Assembly: GCA_964477695.1 (NCBI GenBank) | Contig: CAYZFN010000212.1 | Span: forward strand, 10,974-74,973 | Direction: 5' to 3' | DNA from: an uncultured Enterobacteriaceae bacterium | GTDB taxonomy: Bacteria > Pseudomonadota > Gammaproteobacteria > Burkholderiales > SG8-39 | DNA length: 64,000 nt | In this document: positions 1,417 through 61,167 of the stretch, one piece after another | Numbering within the stretch: position 1 is the first letter of the stretch | Layout: each line of letters opens with the position of its first letter | Position numbers and translations under genes: made by a program | Notes under the pieces: model-generated | Database searches by the model: none | What the model saw: only the letters and a program-made list of their open reading frames with translations | What the model was told of the DNA's origin: nothing

Positions 1417-1452
1417 CGACAACGAGGACAGAATTGCGAGGTTTTATTGCAA

Positions 1453-2828
<1,376 letters not shown>

Positions 2829-2832
<4 letters not shown>

Positions 2833-6533: not shown

Positions 6534-6585
6534 TATCGGTCAGCCGCCGGACGGCGGATTGACCCATATCAACGGCGCTCGACGG

Positions 6586-24458: not shown

Positions 24459-24998
24459 CTAGTGGGTCAGGCCCTCGAGCAGCTTCGCCAGATCGTCGGC
24501 GTGCTCTTCCTCCTTGGCGAGGATCTCCTCCATCAGCCGCCGCGTGGTCGGGTCCTCCTGGCCGAAGTAGCTGATCATCTCGCGGTAGCTGTCGATGGCG
24601 ATGCGCTCGGCGACCAGGTCTTCCCGGATCATCTCCTCGAGCGTGTTGCCTTCGACGTACTCCGCATGGCTGCGCGTCACGAGCCCTTCCGGCGCGAAAT
24701 CCGGCGCGCCGCCGAGCTGGGTGATGCGTTCGGCGATCTGGTCGGCATGCTGCTGCTCCTCCTGGGCGTGCTCGAGGAACTCCGCCGCCACGCTTTCCGC
24801 ATGGATGCCTTGCGCCATGTAGTAATGGCGCTTGTAGCGCAGCGTGCAGATGATCTCCGTGGCGAGCGCCTCGTTGAGCAGCCGCAGCACTACGTCCCGG
24901 TCGGCGTGGTAGCCCGGCGTGACCGCGCCCTGGGCGATGTGCTCGCGGGCCCGCCGGCGCAGCGTCTGGATGTCGGAGAGAAAGGCGCCTTGCGTCAT
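24459..24998 (-). CDS. Ferritin-like di-iron protein (bacterioferritin/Dps superfamily)
   Basis: ..LNEALATEIICTLRYKRHY..EFLEHAQEEQQHADQIAERI..EMIREDLVAERIAIDSYRE..EILAKEEEHADDL shows paired E..ExxH-type ligand helices. Start 7 nt after the upstream stop. Confidence 0.85.
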   Translation of the reverse strand: MTQGAFLSDIQTLRRRAREHIAQGAVTPGYHADRDVVLRLLNEALATEIICTLRYKRHYYMAQGIHAESVAAEFLEHAQEEQQHADQIAERITQLGGAPDFAPEGLVTRSHAEYVEGNTLEEMIREDLVAERIAIDSYREMISYFGQEDPTTRRLMEEILAKEEEHADDLAKLLEGLTH

Positions 24999-25005
24999 CG
25001 CGTGC

Positions 25006-25518
25006 TTACTTCGAGGTCGTGGTCGCGCGATTCGCGCCCGCGCCCGTGGCCGCATTGCGCTTGCTGTTGTCGGCCTTCGCGTGCTTCGCCTTGATGTCCG
25101 CCTTGGCGTGGTCGTAGTTCGCCTTCGCTTCCTTCTTGCAGGCGCTCTCTTCCTTGCCCTTCATGCTCTTGCACTTCTGCTCGGCCACCTTGTACTCGTG
25201 CTCGGCCTTCGCTTCGTCGACCTTGCGCTCGTGCGCCGCGGAGGGCTGGTACTTCTGCTCGATCTCGGCCTTCGCGACCTTCTCGTTGCCTTTGGCGTCG
25301 GCTTCGCACACCTCGTGCTCGTTGCCCTTCATCTCCTTGCACTTCGCGATCGCCGCCTTGTAGTCGGCCTTGGCATGGTCCTCGTCGGCCTTCTTCGCCT
25401 GGCGGTCGACCTTCGGCCGGTCCGCGCCGCTCGACGGCGAGGGGGTGGTTTGCGCCTGTGCCGCGCCGGCAAAGGCGAAGGCGACGGCCGCGGCGATGCT
25501 CAACAGTCTGAGTTGCAT
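25006..25518 (-). CDS. Secreted Lys/Ala/Glu-rich protein with two C-x10-C repeats
   Basis: Signal peptide MQLRLLSIAAAVAFAFAGAAQA. Internal duplication DEDHAKADYKAAIAKCKEMKGNEHEVCEADAKGN.. versus DEAKAEHEYKVAEQKCKSMKGKEESACKKEAKAN... AGGAGGA SD. Confidence 0.75.
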   Translation of the reverse strand: MQLRLLSIAAAVAFAFAGAAQAQTTPSPSSGADRPKVDRQAKKADEDHAKADYKAAIAKCKEMKGNEHEVCEADAKGNEKVAKAEIEQKYQPSAAHERKVDEAKAEHEYKVAEQKCKSMKGKEESACKKEAKANYDHAKADIKAKHAKADNSKRNAATGAGANRATTTSK

Positions 25519-25549
25519 GGCTATGTTTCCTCCTAGGTTGTGGGATGCG

Positions 25550-25714
25550 TTAAGGCCTTCTCAGCAGGCCCGCGACGAGCGAGACCAGGAAAAGAACCAC
25601 GAAAACGACGAACAGGATCTTCGCGATCTCCGCGGCTCCCGCGGCGATGCCGGTAAAGCCGAACACGGCTGCGATGATGGCGATGATGAAAAAGGCAAGC
25701 GCCCAGCTCAACAT
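25550..25714 (-). CDS. DUF1328 (YtjA/UPF0391) small membrane protein
   Basis: The 54-aa product [54 protein letters not shown] is near-collinear with E. coli YtjA. GAAGGAG SD. Below the 60-aa ORF-track cutoff as an independent ORF. Confidence 0.85.
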
Positions 25715-25757: not shown

Positions 25758-25773
25758 AGCAAACCGCGTGCCA
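25758..25773 (-). promoter_or_regulatory. Consensus sigma-54 promoter TGGCAC-GCGGT-TTGCT
   Basis: Perfect match to TGGCACG-N4-TTGCW on the minus strand. Predicted +1 is near 25747, giving a 33-nt leader with an SD before ATG 25714. Confidence 0.6.
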
Positions 25774-25900
25774 AAGCGCGCGGCATGCGCTGGACGGCCT
25801 TTTGTAATCTTGGCGCGCTCGCGGCGGAAGTCGGCCGCGCCGGTAGCGTTTCCGCTACGGGCTGTCCCCGGCATGTCTCCTGCTGCAGGCCAGGTGAGCC

Positions 25901-26926
25901 ATGCGAATCGACGACGACCTGCCGCTGATGGTCTGGACCGCCCGGCCGGACCTCGCGTGCGACTACGTAAGCCGCGCGTGGCTGGATTTCACGGGCTACT
26001 CGCCGGAGCAGGCGCTCGGCCACGGCTGGTCGCGGGCGCTGCATCCTGAAGACCTGGCGCGTTGGCTCGATACATGCGTTCGCGCCTTCGATGCGCGAGA
26101 GCCGTTCGCGCTCGAATACCGCTTGCGCAGGCGCGATGGACAGTACCGATGGGTGCTCGATCGTGCCACACCCCGTGCCGGGAGCGGGCCGTTCGCCGGC
26201 TTCGCCGGCGTATGCGTGGACATCGACGAGGCGAAGCGCGCGCAGCACGAGCTTGCCCGATCGCTCGAGCGCGAGCGCCGGCTGCGCCTCGCGGTGGAGG
26301 AGGCGAGCCGCGCCAAGGACGCGTTCCTCACCGCGGTGCTGAACGAGCTGCAGGCGCCGACGCACGCCATGGCCACGTGGGCGGGGCACTTGCGCAACCG
26401 GCTGAAAGCGGCCGGCGAGGCCGGGGCGCTCGAGTCGATCGAGCGCAACGCCCGGCTGCAGAGCCGCATCATCGCCAACCTGCAGCAGCTTTCGCAGCCC
26501 GGACATGCGCCGCTCGCGCACGCGCTGGAGGAGCCGCTGCTCTCGGGCGTGCGGGTGCTGCTCGTCGAGGATGACGCCGCGGCGCGCGAGCTGCTCGTCA
26601 AGGTGCTGCGTGTCGCGGGCGCCGAAACGCGGGCCGCGGCCTCGAGCGCCGAAGCGCTCGACGCCCTCGGCGAATGGCGACCCGACATCGTGCTATCCGA
26701 TCTCGGCATGCGCGGCGACGATGGTTACGTGCTGATTCGTGCCGTGCGCGCGCTGCCAGCGGAGCGCGGCGGCTGTGTCCCGGCCGCCGCCTTGACCGTG
26801 GCCACGGAACCGCAGGCGCGCAACCGCGCAGCGGCAGCCGGCTACGACGCGCAACTCGCCAAGCCGGTCGAGCCGGTCGCGCTGCTCGCGACGGTGGCAC
26901 GCCTCGTGCAACCGGCAAGCTTTTAG
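25901..26926 (+). CDS. PAS - degenerate DHp (His replaced by Asn, no ATPase domain) - receiver protein
   Basis: PAS domain (..[32 protein letters not shown]..). The DHp-like helix [25 protein letters not shown] sits where hybrid kinases in this window have ..SHELR.P... There are no N/G boxes. An intact REC follows ([26 protein letters not shown]). Confidence 0.85.
26895..26910 (+). promoter_or_regulatory. Sigma-54-type promoter candidate TGGCAC-GCCTC-GTGCA
   Basis: Perfect -24 element, correct GG-N10-GC spacing, and a -12 element GTGCA with one mismatch. Predicted +1 is near 26921, giving a 30-nt leader to ATG 26951. Confidence 0.45.
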
Positions 26927-26950
26927 AGAGACGTCAGCTAAAGGATGGCG

Positions 26951-27118
26951 ATGAATCGAGACAAGCCGCAGGACCGCTGGCCCTTCGATCCGATGCAGCC
27001 CGGCGACCACGAGCCGGCGCGGCCGGCCGAGGAGGTCGAGCCGGTACAGAAGCAGACCGGCCGGGGCAAGACGCAGCCGTCGCCCGACTACCGCAGATCC
27101 GAGGAGAAGCCGAAGTGA
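26951..27118 (+). CDS. Small hydrophilic Pro/Glu/Asp/Lys-rich protein (hydrophilin-like), not in the ORF track
   Basis: MNRDKPQDRWPFDPMQPGDHEPARPAEEVEPVQKQTGRGKTQPSPDYRRSEEKPK. About 90 percent of codons end in G/C. An AAGGA SD lies 5 nt upstream. The stop overlaps the BON start as GTGA. An alternative ATG lies at 26945. Confidence 0.4.
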   Translation: MNRDKPQDRWPFDPMQPGDHEPARPAEEVEPVQKQTGRGKTQPSPDYRRSEEKPK

Positions 27119-27444
27119 GAAGCGTCCTCTTCGCCGCCGCACTCCTGCTCGCCGCCATGTTGGGCGCGACCGGCTGCGCCGGGCCCGCCGATTCGGCCGC
27201 GCACCGCTCGGCCGGTGAATTCACCGACGATGCGGCCATCACCGCCAAGGTGAAGAGCGCGATCGCGACCGACGTGGGAGCGCGCACTGCCGCCGCGGTC
27301 AACGTCGATACCTACCGCGGCTCGGTGCAGCTCACCGGATTCGTCGACGATCGAGAAACGGCGCAGCGTGCAGAGGCGGCCGCGAAAAAGGTGAGCGGCG
27401 TGCGCGCGGTAAAGAACTCGATCCGCCTGAAGTCTTCCTCTTAG
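27115..27444 (+). CDS. BON-domain lipoprotein (OsmY-like)
   Basis: GTG start preceded by GAGGAG. Lipobox LGATGC. BON motif ..DAAITAKVKSAIATD..VNVDTYRGSVQLTGFVDDRETAQRAEAAAKKVSGVRAVKNSI... Confidence 0.8.
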   Translation: MRSVLFAAALLLAAMLGATGCAGPADSAAHRSAGEFTDDAAITAKVKSAIATDVGARTAAAVNVDTYRGSVQLTGFVDDRETAQRAEAAAKKVSGVRAVKNSIRLKSSS

Positions 27445-27471: not shown

Positions 27472-28071
<600 letters not shown>

Positions 28072-28086
<15 letters not shown>

Positions 28087-28623
28087 GGGATTGCGCGGAT
28101 CGAAATCGCGCCATCCGTCGCGCCACTGGCCTTCGGCCCGGCCGACGTCGCGCGCATTGTGCGCGCGCAGGATGTCGAGCGCCGCGCGCTCGCTGCCGGC
28201 CCGGTCGACGCACACGGCGACCATGCGTCCGGCCCTGGGCTCTACGGGATGCTCGACCGAGGCCCAGCGCCGCTCGCCGCCGCGAAACGAGGCGAGCGCA
28301 CCGGCGAAGGCACCGACCAGGGCGCCGAGCAGCGCCGCCAGCGGCACGGTCGGACGGCCGAGGTCGATAGCGCCGACGAAGCCGGCGATCAGGCCGACCA
28401 CCAGGCCGAGCACGGCGCCAATGGCCGCGCCGACGCCGCCACGCTGCGAGCCTTCGCTGCTGTGCGGCGCGTCGCCGCCGGCGGCGGTCATGGCGTGTTG
28501 CCCCGGCGGGCTGACATAGAACGCGTCGACTTCGCTGCGCGAGAAGCCCTCGCGCTTCAGTGCCTCGAGCACCGCATCGGCGTCGAGAGTGCGGTCGAAC
28601 CGGCCAGCGACGATTCGCGACAT
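28072..28623 (-). CDS. Membrane stress protein (YflT/GSP17M-like N-domain plus glycine-zipper TM)
   Basis: MSRIVAGRFDRTLDADAVLEALKREGFSRSEVDAFYV resembles the YflT general-stress domain. A Gly-zipper follows (GVGAAIGAVLGLVVGLIAGFVGA..LLGALVGAFAGAL). GGAGGA lies 7 nt before ATG 28623. The gene starts 20 nt after the rpoN stop. Confidence 0.65.
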
Positions 28624-28643
28624 CGGCATATCCTCCTGAAGAG

Positions 28644-30017
28644 CTAAGCGCCCCGCCGCATATCGGCGCGGCGCACGTCCACGCTGGGCATGCGCATGAG
28701 CGCGCGATACTTGGTGATGGTGCGCCTTGCAACTCTCAGGCCCTGCTGCGCGAGCAGGCGCGCGAGCTCGGCGTCGGAGAGCGGCGCACGCGGATCCTCG
28801 GCGGCGATGAGCTCCTTCATCACCGCGCGCACCGCGGTGGCCGAGGCGGCGCCGCCGTTTTCCGTGGCCAGGCGGCGCGAGAAGAAATGCTTGAACTCGA
28901 AGAGGCCGCGCGGGGTCGCCATGTACTTGTTGTTGGTCACGCGGCACACCGTCGACTCGTGCAGCCCGAGCTCGCCGGCGATGAGCTTCAGCGTGAGCGG
29001 CTTCATCGCCACCTCGCCGTACTCGAAGAACCCGCGCTGGCGCGCGACGATGGCGTCGGCGACGCGCTGGATGGTCGCGAAGCGCTGCTCGATGGAGCGC
29101 AGCAGCCAGCGCGCCTCCTGCAGGTGGCGGGCGAGGGACTGGTTCGAGCCCTTGCTCGAGAGCGCATCGGCATACGCCCGGTTGAGGCGCACGCGCGGCA
29201 GCGAAGCCGGGTTGATGATCGCCACCCAGCGGTCGCGCGCCTTCTTGACGATGACGTCGGGCACGACATAGCGCGCCTCCTGCGGGCCGAAGCGATGGCC
29301 GGGGCGCGGGTCGAGCGAGCGGATGAGCGCCCGCGCCACGTGCAGCATCTTCTCGTCGCAGCCGGCGGCGTGCTGCAGGCGGGCCCATTCGCGGTTGGCG
29401 AGCAGGCTGAGGTTGCCCTTGACGATGCGCAGCGCCACGTCGCGCCCGGCCGTTTCCGGCGGCAGCGCGTTCAGCTGCAGGGCGAGGCATTCCTCGAGCG
29501 AGCGCGCGCCGACGCCGGCCGGGTCGAGGCTTTGCACGAGGCGCAACGCGGCGCCGAAGTCCTCGGCCCGCACGTCCTGTTCCGGCGGCACGAGCGCCGC
29601 CAGCTCGTCGAACGAGAGCTTGAAATAGCCGTCGTCGTCCAGGCTGTCGATGATCATCTGCGCGAGGGCGCGGTCGCGGTCGCCCATCGGCGAGATCATG
29701 AGCTGCTCCCTCAGGTGCTGCTGCAGGGTGGGCTGGCCGTCGGCCGCGCCGCCCCAGTCGTCCTGCTCACGCTCGAGCGATCCACCCGAGCCGGTCGGCT
29801 CCTGCGGCACGACGATGTCGTCGACCGCGGCCGCGTCGCGCAGCGGCGTCGCTTCCGCCGCCTCGGGGTTCTCCTCGAGAAAGGGGTTGGCCGCGAGGGC
29901 CTGTTCCATCTCCTGCGCGAACTCGAGCGCCGACATCTGCAGCAGCTTGAGCGCCTGCTGCACCTGCGGTGTGAGGGTGAGATGCTGGCGAAGACGTAGC
30001 GCGATGGCGGGGGACAT
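28644..30017 (-). CDS. rpoN: RNA polymerase sigma-54 factor
   Basis: Region I LRLRQHLTLTPQVQQALKLLQMSALEF. C-terminal HTH and RpoN box ARRTITKYR. Length of about 457 aa. ATG 30017 with an AAGGA SD. Confidence 0.95.
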   Translation of the reverse strand: MSPAIALRLRQHLTLTPQVQQALKLLQMSALEFAQEMEQALAANPFLEENPEAAEATPLRDAAAVDDIVVPQEPTGSGGSLEREQDDWGGAADGQPTLQQHLREQLMISPMGDRDRALAQMIIDSLDDDGYFKLSFDELAALVPPEQDVRAEDFGAALRLVQSLDPAGVGARSLEECLALQLNALPPETAGRDVALRIVKGNLSLLANREWARLQHAAGCDEKMLHVARALIRSLDPRPGHRFGPQEARYVVPDVIVKKARDRWVAIINPASLPRVRLNRAYADALSSKGSNQSLARHLQEARWLLRSIEQRFATIQRVADAIVARQRGFFEYGEVAMKPLTLKLIAGELGLHESTVCRVTNNKYMATPRGLFEFKHFFSRRLATENGGAASATAVRAVMKELIAAEDPRAPLSDAELARLLAQQGLRVARRTITKYRALMRMPSVDVRRADMRRGA

Positions 30018-30048
30018 GAGTTTCCTTGTTTGCGGTCCCCTTGCGTAC

Positions 30049-30064
30049 TGCAGGGAACGTGCCA
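30049..30064 (-). promoter_or_regulatory. Sigma-54-type promoter candidate TGGCAC-GTTCC-CTGCA upstream of rpoN
   Basis: Perfect -24 element, correct GG-N10-GC spacing, and a -12 element CTGCA with one mismatch. Predicted +1 is near 30038, giving a 21-nt leader containing the SD. Confidence 0.5.
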
Positions 30065-30174
30065 GCCGCCCGCCGAAGGCCCGCGCCGACCGGCTCGCCC
30101 GCTTGCGCTGTAACCGTTTCCCAGGCCCGGTAGCAATTACCGCGCGCGGGCTCGGGTTTTGCTGAGCCGCGCGC

Positions 30175-32598
30175 ATGAGCGACCGGCTCGAGCGCTATCG
30201 GCAGATGCGCGACTTCTCGATCACCCCCGAGCCCTCGGGCGAGAGGACGCGCTCGAGTAAGGTCAAGGCGCTGCGCTACTACGTGCAGCGCCATGCGGCG
30301 ACTCGCCTGCACTACGACTTTCGCCTCGAGCTGGAGGGTGTGCTCAAGAGCTGGGCGGTGCCGAAGGGACCGAGCCTCGATCCGGCCGACAAGCGCCTCG
30401 CGATGCAGACCGAGGACCATCCGCTGGACTATGGCGACTTCGAGGGCGTGATCCCGGAGAAGCAGTACGGCGCGGGTGAAGTGCTGCTTTGGGACCAGGG
30501 CACATGGGTCGTGGAAGACCGCGATGCGCTCGAGGCGCTGCGCAAGGGCCGGCTGCACTTTCATCTCGAGGGCGAGAAGCTGCACGGCTCGTGGATACTC
30601 GCGCGCACGCGCGGTAACGACGACAAGCCGGCGTGGCTGCTCATCAAGCGCAACGACGAGGAGGCACGGCCTGGCTACCAGATCACCCTGGAGCGACCCG
30701 AAAGCGTGAAACGCCAGCCCAAGGCTGCAAAGTACGGCAAGCGCTCGGCGCTGCCGCAGTTCATTACGCCGCAGCTCGCGACGCTGGTCACGTCCCCGCC
30801 GGCGAGCGGCAGCTGGATCTACGAGGTGAAGCACGACGGCTACCGCATGCTCGCGCGGCTTACCAAGCGCGATGCGCGGCTCTTCACGCGCAGCGGCAAG
30901 GACTGGAGCGCAAAGCTGCCGTACCTGGCGAAGGAACTGAAGCAGCTCAAGCTCGAGGAGAGCTGGCTCGACGGCGAGATCGTCGTGCTGCGCGAGGATG
31001 GACGCGCGAGCTTCCAGGCGCTGCAAAACGCGTTCGAGTCGGGCCGCGACAGCCAGATCATCTACTACGTGTTCGATGCGCCTTTTCTCAAGGGGCAGGA
31101 TTTGCGCGGGCTGCCGCTGGCCGAGCGCAAGGCGCGGCTCAAGGCGGCGTTCAGGGCGTCGCGCGCCGTGCGCTTCAGCGACCACCTCGAAGGCGAGGCG
31201 CACGAGGTGCTCGACAAAGCGTGCAAGCTCGGCCTCGAGGGACTGATCGGCAAGCGCACGGACGCGGTGTACGCGGCGGGGCGCACCAAGACCTGGATCA
31301 AGCTGAAGTGCCGCAGCCGCCAGGATTTCGTCATCGCCGGCTACAGCGCGCCGGCCGGCTCGCGCACCGGCTTTGGCGCGCTGCTGCTCGCGTTCTACGA
31401 CCGGCAGATGAAGCTGCGCTACGCGGGCAAGGTCGGCACCGGGTTTGACGAACATCTCCTCGCCACCTTGGCGAAAAGGCTGTCCGGGATGAAGCGGTCC
31501 GATTCGCCGCTCGTCGATCCGCCGCGCGAGCGCGGCATCACGTGGGTGAAGCCGCAGCTCGTGTGCGAGGTGGCGTTCGCCGAGCGCACCGCCGACGGCA
31601 TCCTGCGACAGGCGTCCTTCATGGGGCTGCGCGCGGACATTCCAGCGAAGTCCGTGGGCGAGGAGCGCGCCCAGGACCCGCCCGAGACGAAAGGCGACGC
31701 GAAAAGCGAAGCGCCGCAAGGCGTCAGGATCACGCACCCCGAGCGCATCGTCTATCCGGCGCTCGGCTTCACGAAGCTCGATCTCGCGCGCTACTACGAT
31801 GCAGTGGCCGAGGCGCTGCTGCCGCATCTCGCCGGCCGGCCGCTCACGCTGGTGCGCTGCCCCGACGGCGTCGGCCGCGAGTGCTTCTACCAGCGTCACC
31901 TGGCGATGGGCGCAAGCCCCGGCGAGGTCAAGACGTTCAAGCGGCTTCGCTCGAGCAAGGGTTATTACATCTACGTCGACTCGCAGCGCGGCATCCTTTC
32001 GATGGTACAGAACGGCGCGATCGAAATGCATACGTGGGGTGCGACGCTGCCCGACACGCAGCACCCGGACCGCATCACCCTCGACCTGGATCCCGGCGAG
32101 GATCTGCCGTGGGCCGAACTGCGCCGGGCCGCGGAGATGACACGCAGGGTGGTCGAAGGCCTGGGGCTGAAATCCTTCCTCAAGACCACCGGGGGCAAGG
32201 GGCTGCATGTCGTCGTGCCGATCGCGCGCAAGTGGAATTGGGCCGAGGTGAAGGAGTTCTCGCGCCTCATTGCCGCGTTTCTGGTCAGGGCTGAGCCGGG
32301 ATTCTTCACGGCGCGCATTGCGAAGGCCGAGCGGCCGGGCAAGGTGTTCGTCGATTATTTGCGCAACTCCGAAACGGCGAGCGCGGTCGCCGCATTCTCG
32401 GCGCGCGCGCGGCCGAACGCCGGGGTGTCTACGCCGCTACATTGGCAAGAGCTCGACGACGACCTGCGCGGCCGCTTCACCGTGCTTACCGTGCCGAAGC
32501 GGCTCGCGCAGCTAAGGAAGGATCCGTGGGACGGCTATGCCGCTGCTGCCCGGCAGCCGCTGACCGAGAAGATGCGCGCCGCGCTGCGCGGCGCCTGA
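30175..32598 (+). CDS. ligD: ATP-dependent DNA ligase D (phosphoesterase-ligase-polymerase order)
   Basis: PE domain ..RDFSITPEP..YYVQRHAATRLHYDFRLE..WAVPKGPS... Ligase motif I EVKHDGYR. C-terminal primase-polymerase ..ITHPERIVYP..LTLVRCPDG..DLDP... Confidence 0.95.
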   Translation: MSDRLERYRQMRDFSITPEPSGERTRSSKVKALRYYVQRHAATRLHYDFRLELEGVLKSWAVPKGPSLDPADKRLAMQTEDHPLDYGDFEGVIPEKQYGAGEVLLWDQGTWVVEDRDALEALRKGRLHFHLEGEKLHGSWILARTRGNDDKPAWLLIKRNDEEARPGYQITLERPESVKRQPKAAKYGKRSALPQFITPQLATLVTSPPASGSWIYEVKHDGYRMLARLTKRDARLFTRSGKDWSAKLPYLAKELKQLKLEESWLDGEIVVLREDGRASFQALQNAFESGRDSQIIYYVFDAPFLKGQDLRGLPLAERKARLKAAFRASRAVRFSDHLEGEAHEVLDKACKLGLEGLIGKRTDAVYAAGRTKTWIKLKCRSRQDFVIAGYSAPAGSRTGFGALLLAFYDRQMKLRYAGKVGTGFDEHLLATLAKRLSGMKRSDSPLVDPPRERGITWVKPQLVCEVAFAERTADGILRQASFMGLRADIPAKSVGEERAQDPPETKGDAKSEAPQGVRITHPERIVYPALGFTKLDLARYYDAVAEALLPHLAGRPLTLVRCPDGVGRECFYQRHLAMGASPGEVKTFKRLRSSKGYYIYVDSQRGILSMVQNGAIEMHTWGATLPDTQHPDRITLDLDPGEDLPWAELRRAAEMTRRVVEGLGLKSFLKTTGGKGLHVVVPIARKWNWAEVKEFSRLIAAFLVRAEPGFFTARIAKAERPGKVFVDYLRNSETASAVAAFSARARPNAGVSTPLHWQELDDDLRGRFTVLTVPKRLAQLRKDPWDGYAAAARQPLTEKMRAALRGA

Positions 32599-32775: not shown

Positions 32776-32791
32776 TGGTACGCAAGTTGCG
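32776..32791 (+). promoter_or_regulatory. Sigma-54-type promoter candidate TGGTAC-GCAAG-TTGCG
   Basis: Correct GG-N10-GC spacing, one mismatch in the -24 element, TTGC at -12. Predicted +1 is near 32802, giving a 35-nt leader with an ACGGAG SD before GTG 32837. Confidence 0.5.
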
Positions 32792-32836
32792 TTCCTCATC
32801 GTATCCATCCTGCAAAAGCTACAACGGAGTGCATAA

Positions 32837-34219
<1,383 letters not shown>

Positions 34220-34262
34220 AGGTTGCTTTTTCGTTGGGCGACTTTTCCTTCAGGAGCAAGCC

Positions 34263-34529
34263 ATGGCTAACGAGCAGACCAGCACCCGTAACCCGCAGCA
34301 GACCGTGGACCGGCTGAGCCAGTCCGCGCACCAGGCCGTCGACCGTGCGGCGAGCGCCGCGTCGGCATATGCCGAGCGCTTCGGCGAGAAGGGCGAGGAA
34401 TGGATGCAGATGCCGCAGGATTGGCTGGAGACGGCGCGCGATTACGTGCGTGAGAATCCGCTGCAGGCGATCGGCATGGCCGCCGCCGCCGGGTACCTGC
34501 TCAGCATCCTGATGCGCAGCCGCGACTAG
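34263..34529 (+). CDS. DUF883 (ElaB/YqjD/YgaM-family) membrane-anchored stress protein
   Basis: Hydrophilic N-terminus and a C-terminal anchor ..ENPLQAIGMAAAAGYLLSILMRSRD, as in E. coli ElaB/YqjD. Confidence 0.85.
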   Translation: MANEQTSTRNPQQTVDRLSQSAHQAVDRAASAASAYAERFGEKGEEWMQMPQDWLETARDYVRENPLQAIGMAAAAGYLLSILMRSRD

Positions 34530-34533
34530 GTTC

Positions 34534-34926
34534 ATGGAGCCCGCACGCAGGGCCGCGCCGGGGCTCGGCGACGCGCTCGCGCGCCTGATCGCCGAGGCGC
34601 GGCAGCTGCTCGCCGACTATGCGCTGCTCACCGTCCTCGACGCGCGGCGCGCGGCGATCCGCCTGGCGTGGATCCTCGGCGCGGTGCTCGTCGGCGCGGT
34701 GCTGATCGTCACTTCCTGGATGGGCCTCGTGTCGGCGGGCATCATGTTCGCGTGGGGCCACGGCGCGTCGTGGCCGGTCGCGCTTGGCATCGCCGCGCTC
34801 ATCAACCTCGTCGCGGCCGGCGTGCTCGTCTGGTTCACGCTCAAGCTTGCCAAGGAGCTGCCCTTCACCGCGCTCCTGCGCCAGCTGCGCGGCGATGCGC
34901 CCGAGCCGCCACAGAAAGTCACATGA
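34534..34926 (+). CDS. YqjE-like (DUF1469 / holin-X superfamily) membrane protein
   Basis: Two TM helices after an amphipathic N-terminus (..LIAEARQLLADYALLTVLDARRAA..). The position directly after the DUF883 gene mirrors E. coli yqjD-yqjE-yqjK. Confidence 0.7.
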   Translation: MEPARRAAPGLGDALARLIAEARQLLADYALLTVLDARRAAIRLAWILGAVLVGAVLIVTSWMGLVSAGIMFAWGHGASWPVALGIAALINLVAAGVLVWFTLKLAKELPFTALLRQLRGDAPEPPQKVT

Positions 34927-35414: not shown

Positions 35415-38300
35415 ATGTCGCCTTCCCCGCTGATTCCCCGGCTGGCCCGCATTTCCAGGACCGCCTATGGCCTCGTCGCGCTGCTCGGCGCGATGGCCAT
35501 TTGGGGCTGGGCCATCGACGTGCCGGTGCTGCGCGATCTCGGCGCGGACTTCGCGCCGATGCCGCCGTCGGGCGCGCTGGCCTTCGTGCTGCTGGCGAGC
35601 AGCTTCTTCGCCGCGCGCGAGGCGCGCCTGCGCGCCTCGCGCGCGGCGGCGGCGCTCGCAGCCGTGATCGCGCTGCTCACGCTCGTCGAGGCGCTCGCCG
35701 GCGTGCGGCTCGGCATGAGCTTCGCGTGGCTCGCGCCGTACCAGAGCGCCGACATGCCGGCGCGCATGTCGATCGCGGCCTGCCTGACGCTGCTTCTCCT
35801 CGCGGCGGCGACGCCGCTCGAGCGTGCGCCGAAGGTGTTCGGCATGTGCGCGAACAGCGTCGCCGCGGGGGTGATCGGCGCGGTGGCGTTCTTCGCGCTG
35901 CTCGGCCTGAGCCTGCGCGTGCTGCGCTTCGACATCGCCGCACCGCTGCTCGGCTTCTCGGCCCCCGCCGCCGTGGCCACGATGCTGGCGGCCATCGCGC
36001 TGGCCGCTGCGCGCCCGACGCCATGGCTCATCGATACGCTGAGCGGCGCGCGGACCGGCGCGGTCGTGACGCGCTGGCTCCTGCCGGCGGCGTTCATCGT
36101 TCCGCTGGCCGTCGGCTGGATGCGCCTGTTCGCCGAGCGCGAGGGCATCTTCGGCGAAGCGTTCGGCATGGCGCTGTTCACCGTGCTGATGATCGTCACG
36201 CTCTCGGCGCTGATCGTCTGGGTCGCGCGCACGCTCGACCAGATCGAGGCGCAGCGCGCGCACGCCGAAGGCGAGGCGACCGAGCAGCGCGAGTGGCTGC
36301 AGGTCACGCTGGCGAGCGTGGGCGACGGCGTGATCGCCACCGACGCGGCCGGCCGCGTGCGCTTCCTCAACCCGGCGGCGCAGCGGCTCACCGGGTGGCG
36401 CGCGGCCGAGGCGGCCGGCCGGCCGATCGACGAGCTGGTGCAGCTCTTCGACGAGCGCAACGGCGGGCCGCTCGCCAATCCGCTGAAGAGCACGCTGCAG
36501 AGCCGCAGCGCGGCCGCGGCGGGCGGCGAGCCGGCGCTGCGCTCGAGGAGCGGCGCGGCGCATCCCGTGGCGGTCAATGCCGCGCCGATCGTCGACGCAG
36601 GCGCCGCGCTGCGCGGCGCGGTGCTCGTGCTGCGCGAGGTGGCGGCGCAGCGCCAGGCCGAGCGCGCGATGCGCGAGGCCTACACCGAGCTCGACCAGCG
36701 CGTCGTGCGCCGGACCGCCGCTCTCGAGCGCGCCAGCGCCGCGCTGCGTGAACGAAACGCGCTGCTCAACGCCATCACCACCGGCACGCCCGACCTCATC
36801 TACGCGAAGGACCGCGAGGGGACGCTGCTCATGGCGAACCCCGCCTGGATGAAGGCGGTCGGCTCGGCCGGGCGCGAGCGCGCGGCGCTCGACGATTCGG
36901 ACCGCCTGGTGCTCGAGTCGGGCGAGACCATGATCCTCGAGGAGATCATCGGCGGACGGACCTACCTCGTCTCGAAGTCGCCGCTGCGCGACGAGCACGA
37001 TCGCGTCATGGGCCTGATCGGCGTCGCGACCGACATCACCGAGCGCAAGCAGGCGCAGCGCGAGCTCGAGAAGCTCGTGGTCGCCGAGCAGCGCCTGCGC
37101 GCCGAGGCGGAGCGCGCCAACCGCGCCAAGGACGAGTTCCTCGCCATCGTCTCGCACGAGCTGCGCTCGCCGCTCAACGCGCTGCGCGGCTGGAGCCACC
37201 TGCTCGCCACCACGCGGCCGCTCGACGGGTCGCTCATCGAGCGCGCCTCGCGCGCGATCAAGCGCAATGTCGACCACCAGACGCGCCTGATCGACGACTT
37301 GCTCGACACATCGCGCATCGTCAGTGGCAAGCTCACCATCGACCGGCGCGTGGTCAACCTGTGCGAGATCGTGATCGCCGCGCTCGACGCGGCGCGGCCG
37401 GTGGCCGCGGCGAAGGCGATCGAGCTGCGCTTCACCCCGGACGACCCGGACATCATGGTGATCGGCGACTCGGGGCGCCTGCAGCAGGTGGTCTCGAACC
37501 TGCTCTCCAACGCGGTCAAGTTCACCCCGGAGAAGGGCGAGGTGTCGGTGCGCCTGATGAAGAACGCCGAGCGGGTGCAATTGCAGGTGAAGGACAACGG
37601 CATCGGCATTGCGCCCGAGTTCCTGCCGCACGTCTTCGACCGCTTCAGCCAGGCGGACACGTCCGCTGCGCGCCGCGCCGGGGGGCTCGGCATCGGCTTG
37701 GCGCTGGTGCGGCATATCGCGCTCCTGCACGGCGGCCAGGTGCGCGCCGACAGCCCCGGCGTCGGGCGCGGCGCGACCTTCACCATCGATCTGCCCGGTG
37801 CGCCGGCGGCGGCGGTGCTGGCGCTGGCCGACGCGCCCTCGCAGAACGAACGGCGCCGCTCGACCGCAGGCGCGCTCGCCGCCGTGCGCGTCTGGATGGT
37901 CGACGACGACACCGACGCGCACGAAGTCGTCTCGTTGACGCTGCACCAGGCGGGCGCCGAGGTGCAGGCGTTCGGCGCGAGCGCGGAGCTGGCCGCGGCG
38001 CTCGAGGCGAAGCTGCCGGCGGGCGGGCCCGTGGTGCTGCTCATCGACCTTGCGATGCCCGGCGAGGACGGCTTCACGGCGCTGCGCCGCGCGCGCGCGA
38101 TCGAGATGGCGCGCGGCTGCGAGCGCACCATTCCTGCCATCGCGCTCACCGCGTTCACCCAGATCGAGCGCGAGCGCCTGACGGCGGCCGGCTTCGCCGA
38201 CCGCGTCGACAAGCCGGTCGACGCCGACAAGCTGATCGCCGCGATCCGCGCCGCGTTGAAGACCGAGCAGCGCGGCGAGCGGCGCTCGGTCGCCTCCTAG
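35415..38300 (+). CDS. Hybrid sensor histidine kinase (multi-TM N-domain, PAS x2, HisKA, HATPase, REC)
   Basis: About 8 N-terminal TM helices and two PAS domains. H-box IVSHELRSPLNAL; G-boxes DNGIGIAP, GLGIGLALVRHIALLHGG. C-terminal REC VWMVDDD..LIDLAMPGEDG..KP. Confidence 0.9.
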   Translation: MSPSPLIPRLARISRTAYGLVALLGAMAIWGWAIDVPVLRDLGADFAPMPPSGALAFVLLASSFFAAREARLRASRAAAALAAVIALLTLVEALAGVRLGMSFAWLAPYQSADMPARMSIAACLTLLLLAAATPLERAPKVFGMCANSVAAGVIGAVAFFALLGLSLRVLRFDIAAPLLGFSAPAAVATMLAAIALAAARPTPWLIDTLSGARTGAVVTRWLLPAAFIVPLAVGWMRLFAEREGIFGEAFGMALFTVLMIVTLSALIVWVARTLDQIEAQRAHAEGEATEQREWLQVTLASVGDGVIATDAAGRVRFLNPAAQRLTGWRAAEAAGRPIDELVQLFDERNGGPLANPLKSTLQSRSAAAAGGEPALRSRSGAAHPVAVNAAPIVDAGAALRGAVLVLREVAAQRQAERAMREAYTELDQRVVRRTAALERASAALRERNALLNAITTGTPDLIYAKDREGTLLMANPAWMKAVGSAGRERAALDDSDRLVLESGETMILEEIIGGRTYLVSKSPLRDEHDRVMGLIGVATDITERKQAQRELEKLVVAEQRLRAEAERANRAKDEFLAIVSHELRSPLNALRGWSHLLATTRPLDGSLIERASRAIKRNVDHQTRLIDDLLDTSRIVSGKLTIDRRVVNLCEIVIAALDAARPVAAAKAIELRFTPDDPDIMVIGDSGRLQQVVSNLLSNAVKFTPEKGEVSVRLMKNAERVQLQVKDNGIGIAPEFLPHVFDRFSQADTSAARRAGGLGIGLALVRHIALLHGGQVRADSPGVGRGATFTIDLPGAPAAAVLALADAPSQNERRRSTAGALAAVRVWMVDDDTDAHEVVSLTLHQAGAEVQAFGASAELAAALEAKLPAGGPVVLLIDLAMPGEDGFTALRRARAIEMARGCERTIPAIALTAFTQIERERLTAAGFADRVDKPVDADKLIAAIRAALKTEQRGERRSVAS

Positions 38301-61151: not shown

Positions 61152-61167
61152 TGCAAGGCTCGTGCCT
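61152..61167 (-). promoter_or_regulatory. Sigma-54-type promoter candidate AGGCAC-GAGCC-TTGCA
   Basis: GGCAC at -24, a perfect TTGCA at -12, correct GG-N10-GC spacing. It overlaps the cyclase stop codon. Predicted +1 falls on the A of ATG 61141. Confidence 0.45.

What the first reader, a model, noticed from the sequence alone, without database searches (positions are those of the whole stretch)
28072..30064. rpoN preceded by its own sigma-54-type promoter and followed by a YflT-like membrane stress gene instead of hpf/ptsN
Canonical proteobacterial rpoN lies in lptB-rpoN-hpf-ptsN. Here rpoN is flanked by ligD (divergent) and by a glycine-zipper/YflT-like protein 20 nt downstream. This argues for a second, specialised copy or a relocated gene.

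TGGCAC-GTTCC-CTGCA lies 21 nt upstream of a plausible leader and SD. This would make the sigma factor dependent on sigma-54 holoenzyme, either by positive autoregulation or by control from a housekeeping RpoN1.
Basis: partly seen in the sequence, partly recalled or inferred. Interest (0 to 1): 0.6.

Follow-up and report, generated by a model that had tools for sequence, protein, structure and literature searches.

The report
Second sigma-54 gene heading stress island
This soil betaproteobacterium carries a second copy of the sigma-54 transcription factor that is switched on from a sigma-54-type promoter, as already shown for rpoN2 of Ralstonia. The copy sits in a conserved block of survival genes that nearly all carry the same kind of promoter, which hints at what this poorly understood factor is for.

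Summary
Window 28644-30017 (-) encodes a complete sigma-54 (457 aa, all three domains). A 183-aa membrane protein gene follows 20 nt downstream and ligD lies divergently upstream.

- **Second copy.** The housekeeping lptB-rpoN1-hpf-ptsN locus lies on two other contigs.
- **Promoter.** TGGCACGTTCCCTGCA (30049-30064, -) has correct -24/-12 spacing. It is kept in 47 of 48 orthologous loci while its flanks drift.
- **Clade.** All of about 80 non-canonical rpoN loci of Betaproteobacteria have such a site. None of 14 canonical ones does. The clade includes a Ralstonia locus. In R. solanacearum, rpoN2 has this promoter and needs rpoN1 (PMC4371752). The finding is therefore a new member of a known kind.
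- **Island.** rpoN2 heads an island that is syntenic in about 50 species, with an activator, a hybrid kinase, ligD, DUF1328-ferritin, DUF883, BON and SOD. Seven units carry conserved sigma-54-type promoters.
- **Promoter split.** Regulator promoters keep T 5' of the GG. Effector promoters almost never do.
- **No RpoS.** No genome of the genus has RpoS (0 of 41).

I infer a two-tier sigma-54 stress regulon. No expression data could be obtained. "YflT-like" is not supported for the downstream gene.

The parts
30049..30064 (-). sigma-54-type promoter of rpoN2 (TGGCACGTTCCCTGCA). GG is at 30062-30063 and GC at 30050-30051. Predicted start near 30038.
   Evidence: Read directly. Invariant TGGCA/TGCAG in 14 of 14 sequences. 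Score at least 9 in 47 of 48 genus loci. Present before all non-canonical rpoN loci and absent before canonical ones.
28644..30017 (-). rpoN2, a second sigma-54 paralog (457 aa)
   Evidence: Pfam AID, CBD and DBD; TIGR02395 445 bits. RpoN2 clade. Diagnostic ARRTITKYR RpoN box and NN in the HTH.
28072..28623 (-). Conserved operon partner (P0001, 183 aa): a beta-alpha-beta unit, a glycine-rich two-helix membrane hairpin, then a second beta-alpha-beta unit. Family uncharacterised.
   Evidence: Starts 20 nt after rpoN2 with its own SD. Follows rpoN2 in 47 of 49 genus loci, and also in Azoarcus and Methyloversatilis. No Pfam family. 631 homologs; every source name among the 120 listed is 'hypothetical protein'. 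AF2 pLDDT 78. Best fold match is ActD of alternative complex III, E 1.5e-4, TM 0.30.
30129..30141 (-). Conserved box GGTAATTGCTACC, 65-77 nt upstream of the -24 element. Candidate activator site shared by rpoN2 and ligD.
   Evidence: At least 90% conserved in 47 aligned upstream regions. A related GTAGCGTTTCCGCTAC sits at the same distance from the DUF1328 promoter. Its function is inferred only.
30148..30163 (+). Weaker GG-N10-GC site (GGGCTCGGGTTTTGCT) ending 11 nt before the ligD ATG. Predicts a leaderless ligD mRNA.
   Evidence: Found 24-30 nt before the ATG in 32 of 36 loci. Base profile. A like site with the same geometry precedes a ku gene on C144.
30175..32598 (+). ligD (3'-phosphoesterase, ligase and primase-polymerase domains), divergent from rpoN2
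   Evidence: Pfam. Syntenic in 36 loci.
32776..32791 (+). sigma-54-type promoter of the activator gene (TGGTACGCAAGTTGCG)
   Evidence: Present in 30 of 30 loci, always with T 5' of GG.
32837..34219 (+). NtrC-type response-regulator enhancer-binding protein (REC, AAA+ with GSFTGA, HTH_8)
   Evidence: Pfam. 81-97% identical in 30 syntenic loci. Loop motif.
34212..34227 (+). sigma-54-type promoter (CGGCATAGAGGTTGCT) of the DUF883 operon. It overlaps the activator's stop codon.
   Evidence: Present in 29 of 29 loci, 37-84 nt before the start, never with T 5' of GG.
34263..34926 (+). ElaB/YqjD-like DUF883 gene (34263-34529) and a holin-X/YqjE-like membrane gene (34534-34926)
   Evidence: DUF883_C at E 1e-8. 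PF07332 at E 9e-5. Weak ElaB NCBIfam hit.
35415..38300 (+). Hybrid sensor histidine kinase, the probable partner of the activator
   Evidence: NCBIfam kinase models. Syntenic.
25758..25773 (-). sigma-54-type promoter (TGGCACGCGGTTTGCT) of the DUF1328 - secreted 170-aa protein - ferritin-like operon
   Evidence: Genome scan. Present in 23 of 23 loci. GGCA and TTGC invariant in the alignment.
24459..25714 (-). Operon: DUF1328 (25550-25714), secreted 170-aa protein (25006-25518), ferritin-like protein (24459-25055 is the longest ORF)
   Evidence: DUF1328 at E 1.3e-15. Ferritin at E 1.4e-28. Translations checked.
25869..25884 (+). GG-N10-GC site (CGGCATGTCTCCTGCT) 16 nt before the PAS-receiver gene
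   Evidence: Present in 25 of 26 loci, never with T 5' of GG.
25901..26926 (+). PAS - receiver domain protein
   Evidence: Pfam PAS_3 and Response_reg.
26895..26910 (+). sigma-54-type promoter (TGGCACGCCTCGTGCA) before a 57-aa hydrophilic ORF (26945-27118) and a BON lipoprotein gene (27115-27444). SOD (27472-28086) may be co-transcribed.
   Evidence: A strong site lies 35-420 nt upstream of BON in 23 of 27 genus loci with a BON match. SOD Pfam.

Best explanation
The window's rpoN is RpoN2, a specialised second sigma-54.

- **Transcription.** It is transcribed together with a conserved 183-aa membrane protein gene from a -24/-12 promoter. Its expression therefore needs an already present sigma-54 holoenzyme plus an ATP-driven enhancer-binding activator.
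This is most likely the housekeeping RpoN1, encoded in lptB-rpoN1-hpf-ptsN elsewhere in the genome, as shown for rpoN2 of Ralstonia solanacearum.
- **The island.** RpoN2 sits in a conserved island with an NtrC-type activator, a hybrid kinase and a PAS-receiver protein. Its other transcription units are ligD, DUF1328-ferritin-like, DUF883/YqjD-like and hydrophilin-BON-SOD. Each has its own conserved sigma-54-type promoter.
- **Inferred cascade.** A signal acts through the kinase and activator. RpoN1 then starts rpoN2 and the activator gene, whose promoters have the canonical T 5' of GG. RpoN2 has clade-specific changes in the RpoN box and the HTH. It then reads the effector promoters, which avoid that T.
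- **Output.** The output is a survival or stationary-phase programme in a genus that lacks RpoS.

Shown: gene identity, paralogy, promoter conservation, synteny, the promoter base split and the absence of RpoS. Inferred: which sigma reads which promoter, the activator's targets and the physiological trigger.
For: - **Paralogy.** A second, canonical locus exists. The tree splits the canonical and RpoN2 clades at SH-aLRT 99. The window falls in a 23-row subclade (99) whose rpoN mostly keeps the P0001 partner.
- **Promoter of rpoN2.** Correct spacing. Excess over chance. Invariant in 14 of 14 sequences and present in 47 of 48 loci. All non-canonical rpoN loci score at least 8.5 apart from two distant outliers, against at most 8 for the 14 lptB/hpf-flanked ones. 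No sigma-70-like site.
- **Published precedent.** R. solanacearum rpoN2 has TGGCACAGCCTTTGCA and is silent in an rpoN1 mutant (PMC4371752). [quoted passage not shown] Azoarcus BH72 rpoN2 is preceded by an RpoN motif and is induced 18-fold under N2 fixation (PMC3916325). B. pseudomallei katE needs rpoN2 in late stationary phase (PMC4745423).
- **Island.** The same gene order occurs in about 50 species-level genomes. Position-conserved GG-N10-GC sites occur before bEBP (30/30), elaB (29/29), the DUF1328 operon (23/23), PAS-REC (25/26), ligD (32/36) and BON. None occurs before internal operon genes.
- **Base split.** T 5' of GG is 95% for rpoN2 and 100% for bEBP. It is 0/29 for elaB, 0/25 for PAS-REC, 0/33 for ligD and 3/23 for DUF1328. 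It is absent from all 15 scored orthologous promoters of an extra-island iron-permease gene. The canonical targets pilA (two copies) and glnA have T.
- **Other stress genes.** Elsewhere in the genome, CsbD, DUF883, DUF1328, DUF4142 and low-affinity iron permease genes also have such promoters.
- **RpoN2 residues.** RpoN box ARRT[IV]TKYR against ARRT[IV]AKYR, and NN against TQ in the HTH. Single RpoN-box substitutions can retarget -24 recognition (PMC12096077).
- **No RpoS.** 0 of 41 genomes pass the TIGR02394 cut-off. The only hit in this genome other than RpoD-type ones is RpoH, recognised by its QRKLFFNLR box.
Against: - There are no transcript data. No start site, no sigma dependence and no inducing condition is shown for this organism.
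- The ligD and PAS-REC sites are weak matches (GGGCTC, CGGCAT...CTGC). They lie so close to the ATG that they need leaderless or near-leaderless mRNAs.
- In this particular genome the DUF1328 and BON promoters carry T 5' of GG, so the split is a trend across the genus and not a rule at every site.
- The counts across genomes are not phylogenetically independent.
- The activator's GSFTGA loop is shared with NtrC and another activator, so it does not mark a private RpoN2 partner.
- Absence of RpoS is judged by one model's cut-off in draft MAGs.
- Ralstonia and Burkholderia have both RpoS and RpoN2, so RpoN2 is not simply a replacement for RpoS.
Confidence: 0.7

Rival explanations
1. Pure positive autoregulation. 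The rpoN2 promoter is read mainly by RpoN2 holoenzyme itself. This would be a bistable self-amplifying switch seeded by leaky expression, with RpoN1 playing no part.
For: The promoter is a good sigma-54 site and RpoN2 keeps the residues that contact GG, namely RR in the RpoN box. The activator gene next door also carries a sigma-54 promoter, which would fit a self-contained loop.
Against: In R. solanacearum, rpoN2 expression is abolished in an rpoN1 mutant. The rpoN2 and activator promoters share the canonical T 5' of GG with the pilA and glnA promoters, and differ there from the island's effector promoters.
Confidence: 0.2
2. Dose model. RpoN1 and RpoN2 read the same promoters. The second copy only raises the sigma-54 level under some condition. 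The missing T at effector promoters simply makes them weak, so that they fire only at a high sigma-54 level.
For: All island promoters keep the universal GG and GC. In Ralstonia, RpoN2 can replace RpoN1 for growth on C4-dicarboxylates. In this genome two effector promoters do have T.
Against: RpoN2 has clade-wide substitutions in both DNA-reading elements, in 79-92 of 92 sequences. Ralstonia RpoN2 fails to replace RpoN1 for most substrates. At the effector promoters the base varies among A, C and G but avoids T, in 0 of 87 elaB, PAS-REC and ligD sites and in none of 15 iron-permease sites. This looks like selection against T and not mere weakness.
Confidence: 0.25
3. The motif is fortuitous or a relic, and rpoN2 is transcribed from an unrecognised sigma-70-family promoter in 30018-30174.
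For: High-GC genomes throw up GG-N10-GC matches often. There are 53 sites scoring at least 8 in this window.
Against: The exact site is kept in 47 of 48 orthologous loci while its flanks diverge. It recurs before every non-canonical rpoN of the class. No sigma-70-like site was found.
Confidence: 0.03

Closest known systems
rpoN2 (RSp1671) of Ralstonia solanacearum GMI1000, with neighbouring activators RSp1667 and RSp1668 (Ray et al. 2015, PMC4371752; Lundgren et al. 2015, PMC4676750)
   Same: - A second sigma-54 outside the lptB-hpf context.
- Its own consensus -24/-12 promoter with T 5' of GG.
- A neighbouring NtrC-type activator.
- The same RpoN2 clade in my tree, through the Ralstonia flaminis locus L096.
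- Experimentally RpoN1-dependent and not interchangeable with RpoN1.
   Different: - Only about 48% identical, and in a sister subclade.
- In the Ralstonia flaminis locus L096 no P0001 or ligD homologue lies within 6 kb of rpoN.
- Ralstonia also has RpoS.
- The published work found no phenotype and called the role of rpoN2 enigmatic. A stress-gene regulon was not described there.
rpoN2 (azo1790) of Azoarcus sp. BH72 (Sarkar and Reinhold-Hurek 2014, PMC3916325)
   Same: A second rpoN far from the nif cluster, with a predicted RpoN motif upstream and strong induction. The Azoarcus indigens and TTM-91 loci in my set are 58% identical to the window copy, keep the rpoN2-P0001 pair and fall in the same subclade.
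   Different: I did not test orthology of azo1790 itself with L079. It was reported in the context of nitrogen fixation, not stress.
Paralog-specific sigma-54 factors of Rhodobacter (Cereibacter) sphaeroides, RpoN1-4 (Poggio et al. 2006, cited in PMC3916325; details from my own memory)
   Same: Several sigma-54 paralogs, each with its own activators and its own promoter flavour. This is the precedent for promoter discrimination between paralogs.
   Different: Those are alphaproteobacterial paralogs for nif and flagellar genes. As far as I recall the discriminating base lies near -11, not 5' of the GG. No stress regulon is involved.
General stress regulons run by RpoS (Gamma- and Betaproteobacteria) and by EcfG (Alphaproteobacteria; e.g. 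PMC7083833)
   Same: The gene content matches: CsbD, DUF883/YqjD, DUF1328, BON/OsmY, ferritin-like or Dps-like proteins, SOD or catalase, Ku and LigD (own knowledge of these regulons; gene identities).
   Different: The promoter type here is -24/-12 and enhancer-dependent. That is a different mechanism, with no basal transcription and an ATPase activator required.

Membership tests
sigma-54 (RpoN) | Region I activator-interacting domain, core-binding domain, and DNA-binding domain with HTH and RpoN box | tested here: met
   PF00309 53.8 bits, PF04963 190.6 bits, PF04552 201.7 bits; TIGR02395 445 bits against a cut-off of 277. RpoN box ARRTITKYR.
Betaproteobacterial RpoN2-type paralog (Ralstonia rpoN2 kind) | A second rpoN besides a canonical lptB-rpoN-hpf copy | tested here: met
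   Canonical locus on C25/C20, flanked by lptB, hpf and ptsN.
Betaproteobacterial RpoN2-type paralog (Ralstonia rpoN2 kind) | Groups phylogenetically with other non-canonical copies, apart from the canonical clade | tested here: met
   IQ-TREE: 38 non-canonical rows against 14 (13 canonical plus one long-branch outlier), SH-aLRT 99. The Ralstonia flaminis copy is inside.
Betaproteobacterial RpoN2-type paralog (Ralstonia rpoN2 kind) | Its own -24/-12 promoter upstream | tested here: met
Betaproteobacterial RpoN2-type paralog (Ralstonia rpoN2 kind) | Expression depends on RpoN1 | not testable with these tools
   Needs mutants or transcript data.
sigma-54-dependent promoter | GG and GC dinucleotides exactly 10 nt apart within a TGGCAC-N5-TTGCW-like context, correctly oriented upstream of a gene | tested here: met
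   15 of 16 consensus positions match. The site lies 31 nt before the ATG.
sigma-54-dependent promoter | An upstream activator site and a mapped transcription start 11-13 nt after the GC | tested here: inconclusive
   A conserved box GGTAATTGCTACC lies 65-77 nt upstream, but no binding or start-site data exist.
YflT / general stress protein 17M (PF11181), for the downstream gene | Match to the family profile | tested here: not met
   hmmscan at E up to 5 lists no PF11181 hit. The N-terminal beta-alpha-beta unit only resembles it by eye.
Glycine-zipper membrane proteins (PF05433, PF13441, PF13488), for the downstream gene | Match above the gathering score | tested here: not met
   Best hits 15.1 and 14.3 bits against cut-offs of 24.2 and 28.9. 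The glycine-rich two-helix hairpin is seen in the AF2 model.

The most novel reading that the evidence does not exclude
RpoN2 is the master of an enhancer-dependent general stress or dormancy response that takes the place of RpoS in this RpoS-less soil genus. It would be wired as a natural two-tier sigma-54 cascade with a promoter dialect. RpoN1 reads TGGCA-type promoters of rpoN2 and its activator. RpoN2, with T for A in the RpoN box and NN for TQ in the HTH, reads VGGCA-type promoters of dozens of survival genes: NHEJ ligD and ku, DUF1328, DUF883, CsbD, BON, ferritin-like, iron permease. The co-transcribed membrane protein P0001, a split PII/ACT-like domain on a glycine-zipper hairpin, could be a membrane-linked modulator of RpoN2.
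Probability: 0.35. Interest if true: 0.75.

Novelty: new member of a known kind. Interest (0 to 1): 0.5.

Why it matters
A second sigma-54 under sigma-54 control has been documented in Ralstonia since 2015, so the finding itself extends a known arrangement to an uncultured soil lineage. Its value lies in the context. In Ralstonia, deleting rpoN2 gave no phenotype and its role was called enigmatic (PMC4371752).

Here the gene is embedded in a strongly conserved set of survival genes, each with a sigma-54-type promoter, in a genus without RpoS. This gives a concrete and testable proposal for what RpoN2 does. It predicts phenotypes in stationary phase, desiccation, oxidative stress and DNA-break survival. 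The published screens tested nutrient use and virulence instead.

The conserved split at the base 5' of the GG, together with clade-specific changes in the RpoN box, would be a natural counterpart of the engineered orthogonal sigma-54 and promoter pairs (PMC12096077).

Tried and rejected
- **Private activator loop.** I asked whether the island's activator has a GAFTGA-loop variant that marks it as RpoN2-specific. It has GSFTGA, but so do NtrC and the other activator on the contig. Dropped.
- **Natural experiment.** I compared genomes of the genus that lack rpoN2 (G004 and G033, 96-97% complete).
  - They also lack P0001, an orthologous ligD, DUF4142 and the iron permease. Promoter loss therefore could not be scored.
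  - Only the co-absence is informative, with n = 2.
  - The non-orthologous ligD of G004 has no GG-N10-GC site.
- **Rfam.** A scan of 20000-42000 at E up to 0.1 found nothing.
- **Sigma-70 promoters and terminators** around rpoN2: none.
- **YflT or any other family for P0001.** No Pfam or NCBIfam match. The fold search gave only a topology-level match to ActD of alternative complex III and to PII-like domains, at TM about 0.3. This is not enough for a functional call.
- **A common upstream activator motif for all island promoters.** Only the two divergent regions (rpoN2/ligD and DUF1328/PAS-REC) share a G-N-AA-NN-GCTAC-like box at a similar distance. No convincing site was seen for the others.
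- **SOD's own promoter.** A TTGCG-type site about 46 nt upstream exists in some relatives but not in this window. Here SOD is more likely read through from the BON operon.
Full report
**1. What is at the coordinates**

On the minus strand, an ATG at 30017 opens a 457-aa frame that ends at 28644. It has the three sigma-54 domains: PF00309, PF04963 and PF04552. It scores 445 bits on TIGR02395, whose cut-off is 277.

The longest ORF in that frame starts at 30176. The N-terminus MSPAIALRLRQHLTLTPQVQQALKLLQMS, the AAGGA five bases upstream, and the alignment with orthologs all fix the start at 30017.

Twenty bases after the stop, behind AGGAGG, a 183-aa ORF begins (28072-28623). Its 3' end overlaps by 15 nt the 3' end of a convergent Fe/Mn superoxide dismutase gene (27472-28086). 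Upstream and divergent lies a three-domain ligD (30175-32598).

The motif TGGCACGTTCCCTGCA occupies 30049-30064 (-). It matches TGGCACG-N4-TTGCW at 15 of 16 positions with exact GG/GC spacing. The predicted start is near 30038, with a leader of about 21 nt.

**2. More than chance?**

- TGGCAY-N6-TGCW occurs three times in the window against 0.34 expected. None of 100 shuffles reached three. All three sites lie within 4.3 kb of rpoN.
- In the 3.9-Mb assembly, TGGCAC-N6-TGCW occurs 14 times, four of them on this 76-kb contig.
- No sigma-70-like promoter and no intrinsic terminator is found in 27900-30400.

**3. Second copy or relocated gene**

The assembly is a MAG, 83% complete, in 244 contigs. 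It has two further Sigma54_DBD matches at the ends of contigs C25 and C20. The two ends overlap by exactly 141 nt and join into one 473-aa rpoN. This gene is preceded by lptB and followed by hpf and ptsN. It is the canonical locus.

The window copy is thus a true second paralog, 51% identical to RpoN1. In most of the sampled genomes of the genus, both an RpoN2 ortholog (80-89% identical) and an RpoN1 (about 50% identical) are seen.

**4. Conservation of the promoter**

- In an alignment of 14 orthologous upstream regions with 50% mean column identity, TGGCA and TGCAG are invariant with fixed spacing.
- A scan of species-representative genomes returned about 50 soil Burkholderiales or "Betaproteobacteria bacterium" MAGs with orthologs 78-97% identical. 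Of these, 47 of 48 with enough upstream sequence have the site 30-50 nt before the ATG.
- All further non-canonical rpoN loci also have a site scoring 8.5-11 within 30-120 nt of the start, apart from two distant outliers (L112, L113). These loci come from Azoarcus, Methyloversatilis, Dechloromonas, Azonexus, Parapusillimonas, Ralstonia flaminis and Nevskiaceae.
- The 14 lptB/hpf-flanked rpoN genes score at most 8 anywhere in their 200-nt upstream regions.

**5. Phylogeny**

A maximum-likelihood tree of 52 RpoN sequences separates two groups at SH-aLRT 99. One holds the 13 lptB/hpf-flanked copies plus one long-branch outlier. The other holds 38 non-canonical rows.

The window copy lies in a 23-row subclade (99). 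Most of its members keep the downstream 183-aa gene. The subclade spans this genus, Azoarcus and Methyloversatilis. The Ralstonia copy is in a sister subclade.

**6. What is already known**

- Ray et al. 2015 (PMC4371752) listed TGGCACAGCCTTTGCA 63 nt upstream of R. solanacearum rpoN2. They showed that rpoN2 expression is abolished in an rpoN1 mutant. They found no phenotype and called the role of rpoN2 enigmatic.
- Lundgren et al. [quoted passage not shown]
- Azoarcus BH72 rpoN2 has a predicted RpoN motif and is strongly induced (PMC3916325).
- B. pseudomallei katE expression in late stationary phase needs rpoN2 (PMC4745423).

The finding is a new member of a known kind.

**7. The surroundings: a conserved island of sigma-54-type promoters**

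The same gene order recurs in about 50 species:

- hybrid kinase, holin-X-like gene, DUF883 gene and activator on one strand
- ligD
- rpoN2 and P0001
- SOD, BON and a hydrophilic small ORF
- PAS-receiver gene
- DUF1328, a secreted 170-aa protein and a ferritin-like protein

I scored the best GG-N10-GC site upstream of each gene in each locus. Position-conserved sites appeared before the following units.

| Unit | Typical site | Loci with site |
|---|---|---|
| activator (bEBP) | TGGTACGCAAGTTGCG | 30/30 |
| DUF883 operon | [CGA]GG[CT]A[TC]-N5-TTGCT | 29/29 |
| DUF1328 operon | NGGCA[CT]-N5-TTGCT | 23/23 |
| PAS-receiver gene | CGGCA[CT]G-N4-CTGCA | 25/26 |
| ligD | GGGC[GT]C-N5-TTGC[TA] | 32/36 |
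| BON operon | [CGAT]GGCAC-N5-TTGCA | 23 of 27 genus loci |

No such sites appeared before genes internal to the operons: P0001, the ferritin-like gene, the holin-X-like gene and the GFO gene.

The window coordinates are 32776, 34212, 25773 (-), 25869, 30148 and 26895.

The ligD and PAS-receiver sites are weaker. They end 11-16 nt before the ATG, which predicts leaderless or near-leaderless mRNAs. A like site with the same geometry precedes a ku gene on contig C144.

**8. Outside the island**

Good sites also precede genes for CsbD, a second DUF1328, a second DUF883, DUF4142, a low-affinity iron permease, a DedA/VTT protein and small hydrophilic proteins. The expected pilA (two copies), glnA and ntrC also have them.

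The iron-permease promoter recurs in 15 of 26 genus loci.

From my own knowledge, these families are typical members of RpoS regulons and of alphaproteobacterial EcfG regulons.

**9. A split between promoter classes**

The base just 5' of the GG differs by promoter class.

| Promoter | T at that base |
|---|---|
| rpoN2 | 95% of 46 |
| activator | 100% of 30 |
| DUF883 operon | 0 of 29 |
| PAS-receiver gene | 0 of 25 |
| ligD | 0 of 33 |
| iron permease | none of 15 |
| DUF1328 operon | 3 of 23 |

- At the effector sites the base varies among A, C and G. This looks like avoidance of T, not conservation of one base.
- My scoring rewards T, so the method is not biased against it.
- The canonical targets pilA and glnA have T.
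- In this particular genome the DUF1328 and BON promoters do have T, so the split is a genus-wide tendency.
- The counts are not phylogenetically independent.

RpoN2-clade proteins differ from canonical ones at diagnostic positions in both DNA-reading elements. The RpoN box reads ARRT[IV]TKYR instead of ARRT[IV]AKYR (79 of 92 against 15 of 15). The HTH reads RVTNNKYM instead of RVTTQKYM.

Engineered single substitutions in the RpoN box are known to retarget -24 recognition (PMC12096077). That these natural changes explain the promoter split is my inference.

**10. No RpoS**

None of 41 genomes of the genus reaches the TIGR02394 cut-off. Thirteen of them are at least 90% complete. Each has only RpoD-like hits of about 275 bits and a protein of about 300 aa scoring about 160 bits. 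In this genome that protein carries the RpoH box QRKLFFNLR.

**11. The downstream gene**

- P0001 has no Pfam or NCBIfam family. Its glycine-zipper hits are sub-threshold and there is no YflT hit.
- It has 631 homologs; every source name among the 120 listed is 'hypothetical protein'.
- An AlphaFold model (pLDDT 78) shows a beta-alpha-beta unit, a glycine-rich two-helix hairpin and a second beta-alpha-beta unit. Arginines after the second helix put both soluble parts in the cytoplasm.
- Foldseek finds only topology-level matches, to ActD of alternative complex III (E 1.5e-4, TM 0.30) and to PII-like proteins.
- Invariant residues include PPGQ, GGD and the C-terminal W-x3-W-x-DFDPR.
- Its function is unknown. 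Its tight pairing with rpoN2 across orders suggests either an effector or a modulator of RpoN2.

**12. Verdict**

Observation confirmed and interpretation supported. The mechanism I consider most likely has four steps.

1. A hybrid kinase and the NtrC-type activator sense a stress or starvation cue.
2. With RpoN1 holoenzyme they start the rpoN2-P0001 operon and the activator gene.
3. RpoN2 holoenzyme then drives the effector promoters.
4. The output is a survival programme.

Steps 1 to 3 are inferred from promoter anatomy, conservation and the Ralstonia experiments. Nothing was measured in this organism.

Earlier AI notes of this scan describe the same island here and similar ones elsewhere. 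I read them after my own analysis of the island and of the base split. They agree with it but are not independent evidence.

Noticed in passing
window 30148-30177; G000 contig C144 about 6540-6620 (-): ligD and one ku gene both carry a GGGC/CGGC-N-C-N5-TTGCTG site that ends 10-11 nt before the ATG, with no Shine-Dalgarno sequence. If these sites are promoters, the NHEJ genes are made as leaderless mRNAs.
   Followed up: partly
window 32776-32796: The -12 region of the activator gene's promoter lies inside a perfect palindrome, CGCAAGTTGCG. The opposite strand therefore also scores as a sigma-54-like site (AGGAACGCAACTTGCG). This may be an operator for autoregulation.
   Followed up: no
window 25843-25858: A perfect inverted repeat GTAGCG-TTTC-CGCTAC lies between the divergent DUF1328 and PAS-receiver promoters, 70-85 nt upstream of the former. 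It resembles the GGTAATTGCTACC box at the same distance from the rpoN2 promoter.
   Followed up: partly
window 61152-61167 (-) and the 54-aa ORF just downstream: AGGCACGAGCCTTGCA precedes a 54-aa Pro/Asp/Glu/Lys-rich ORF of the same kind as the 57-aa ORF at 26945-27118. This may be a second hydrophilin-like gene under a sigma-54-type promoter, 31 kb from rpoN2.
   Followed up: no
G000 contigs C25 (3' end) and C20 (3' end): The housekeeping rpoN1 gene is split between two contig ends that overlap by exactly 141 nt, the assembler's k-mer. This is an assembly break inside the conserved DNA-binding region and not a disrupted gene.
   Followed up: yes
genomes G004 and G033 (same genus, 96-97% complete): Both lack P0001, an orthologous ligD, DUF4142 and the low-affinity iron permease; G004 also shows no rpoN2 (G033 was not searched for it). 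The regulator and its putative targets thus appear to be lost or gained together.
   Followed up: partly
window 1447-2832 (+) and contig C212:8637 (just upstream of the window): A second NtrC-type activator with a GSFTGA loop lies at the window's start. A consensus site TGGCACGCGCGTTGCT lies 2.3 kb before the window, in front of a 271-aa membrane protein. The contig holds more sigma-54 circuitry than the island alone.
   Followed up: no
window 25006-25518 (-): The middle gene of the DUF1328 operon encodes a 170-aa secreted, highly charged protein with no Pfam family.
   Followed up: no
locus L118 (G015:C8:105622-106131): In genome G015 a DUF4142 gene lies about 1.2 kb downstream of rpoN2. In the window's genome the DUF4142 gene, also behind a sigma-54-type promoter, lies on another contig (C167). 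Island content is therefore shuffled between species.
   Followed up: no
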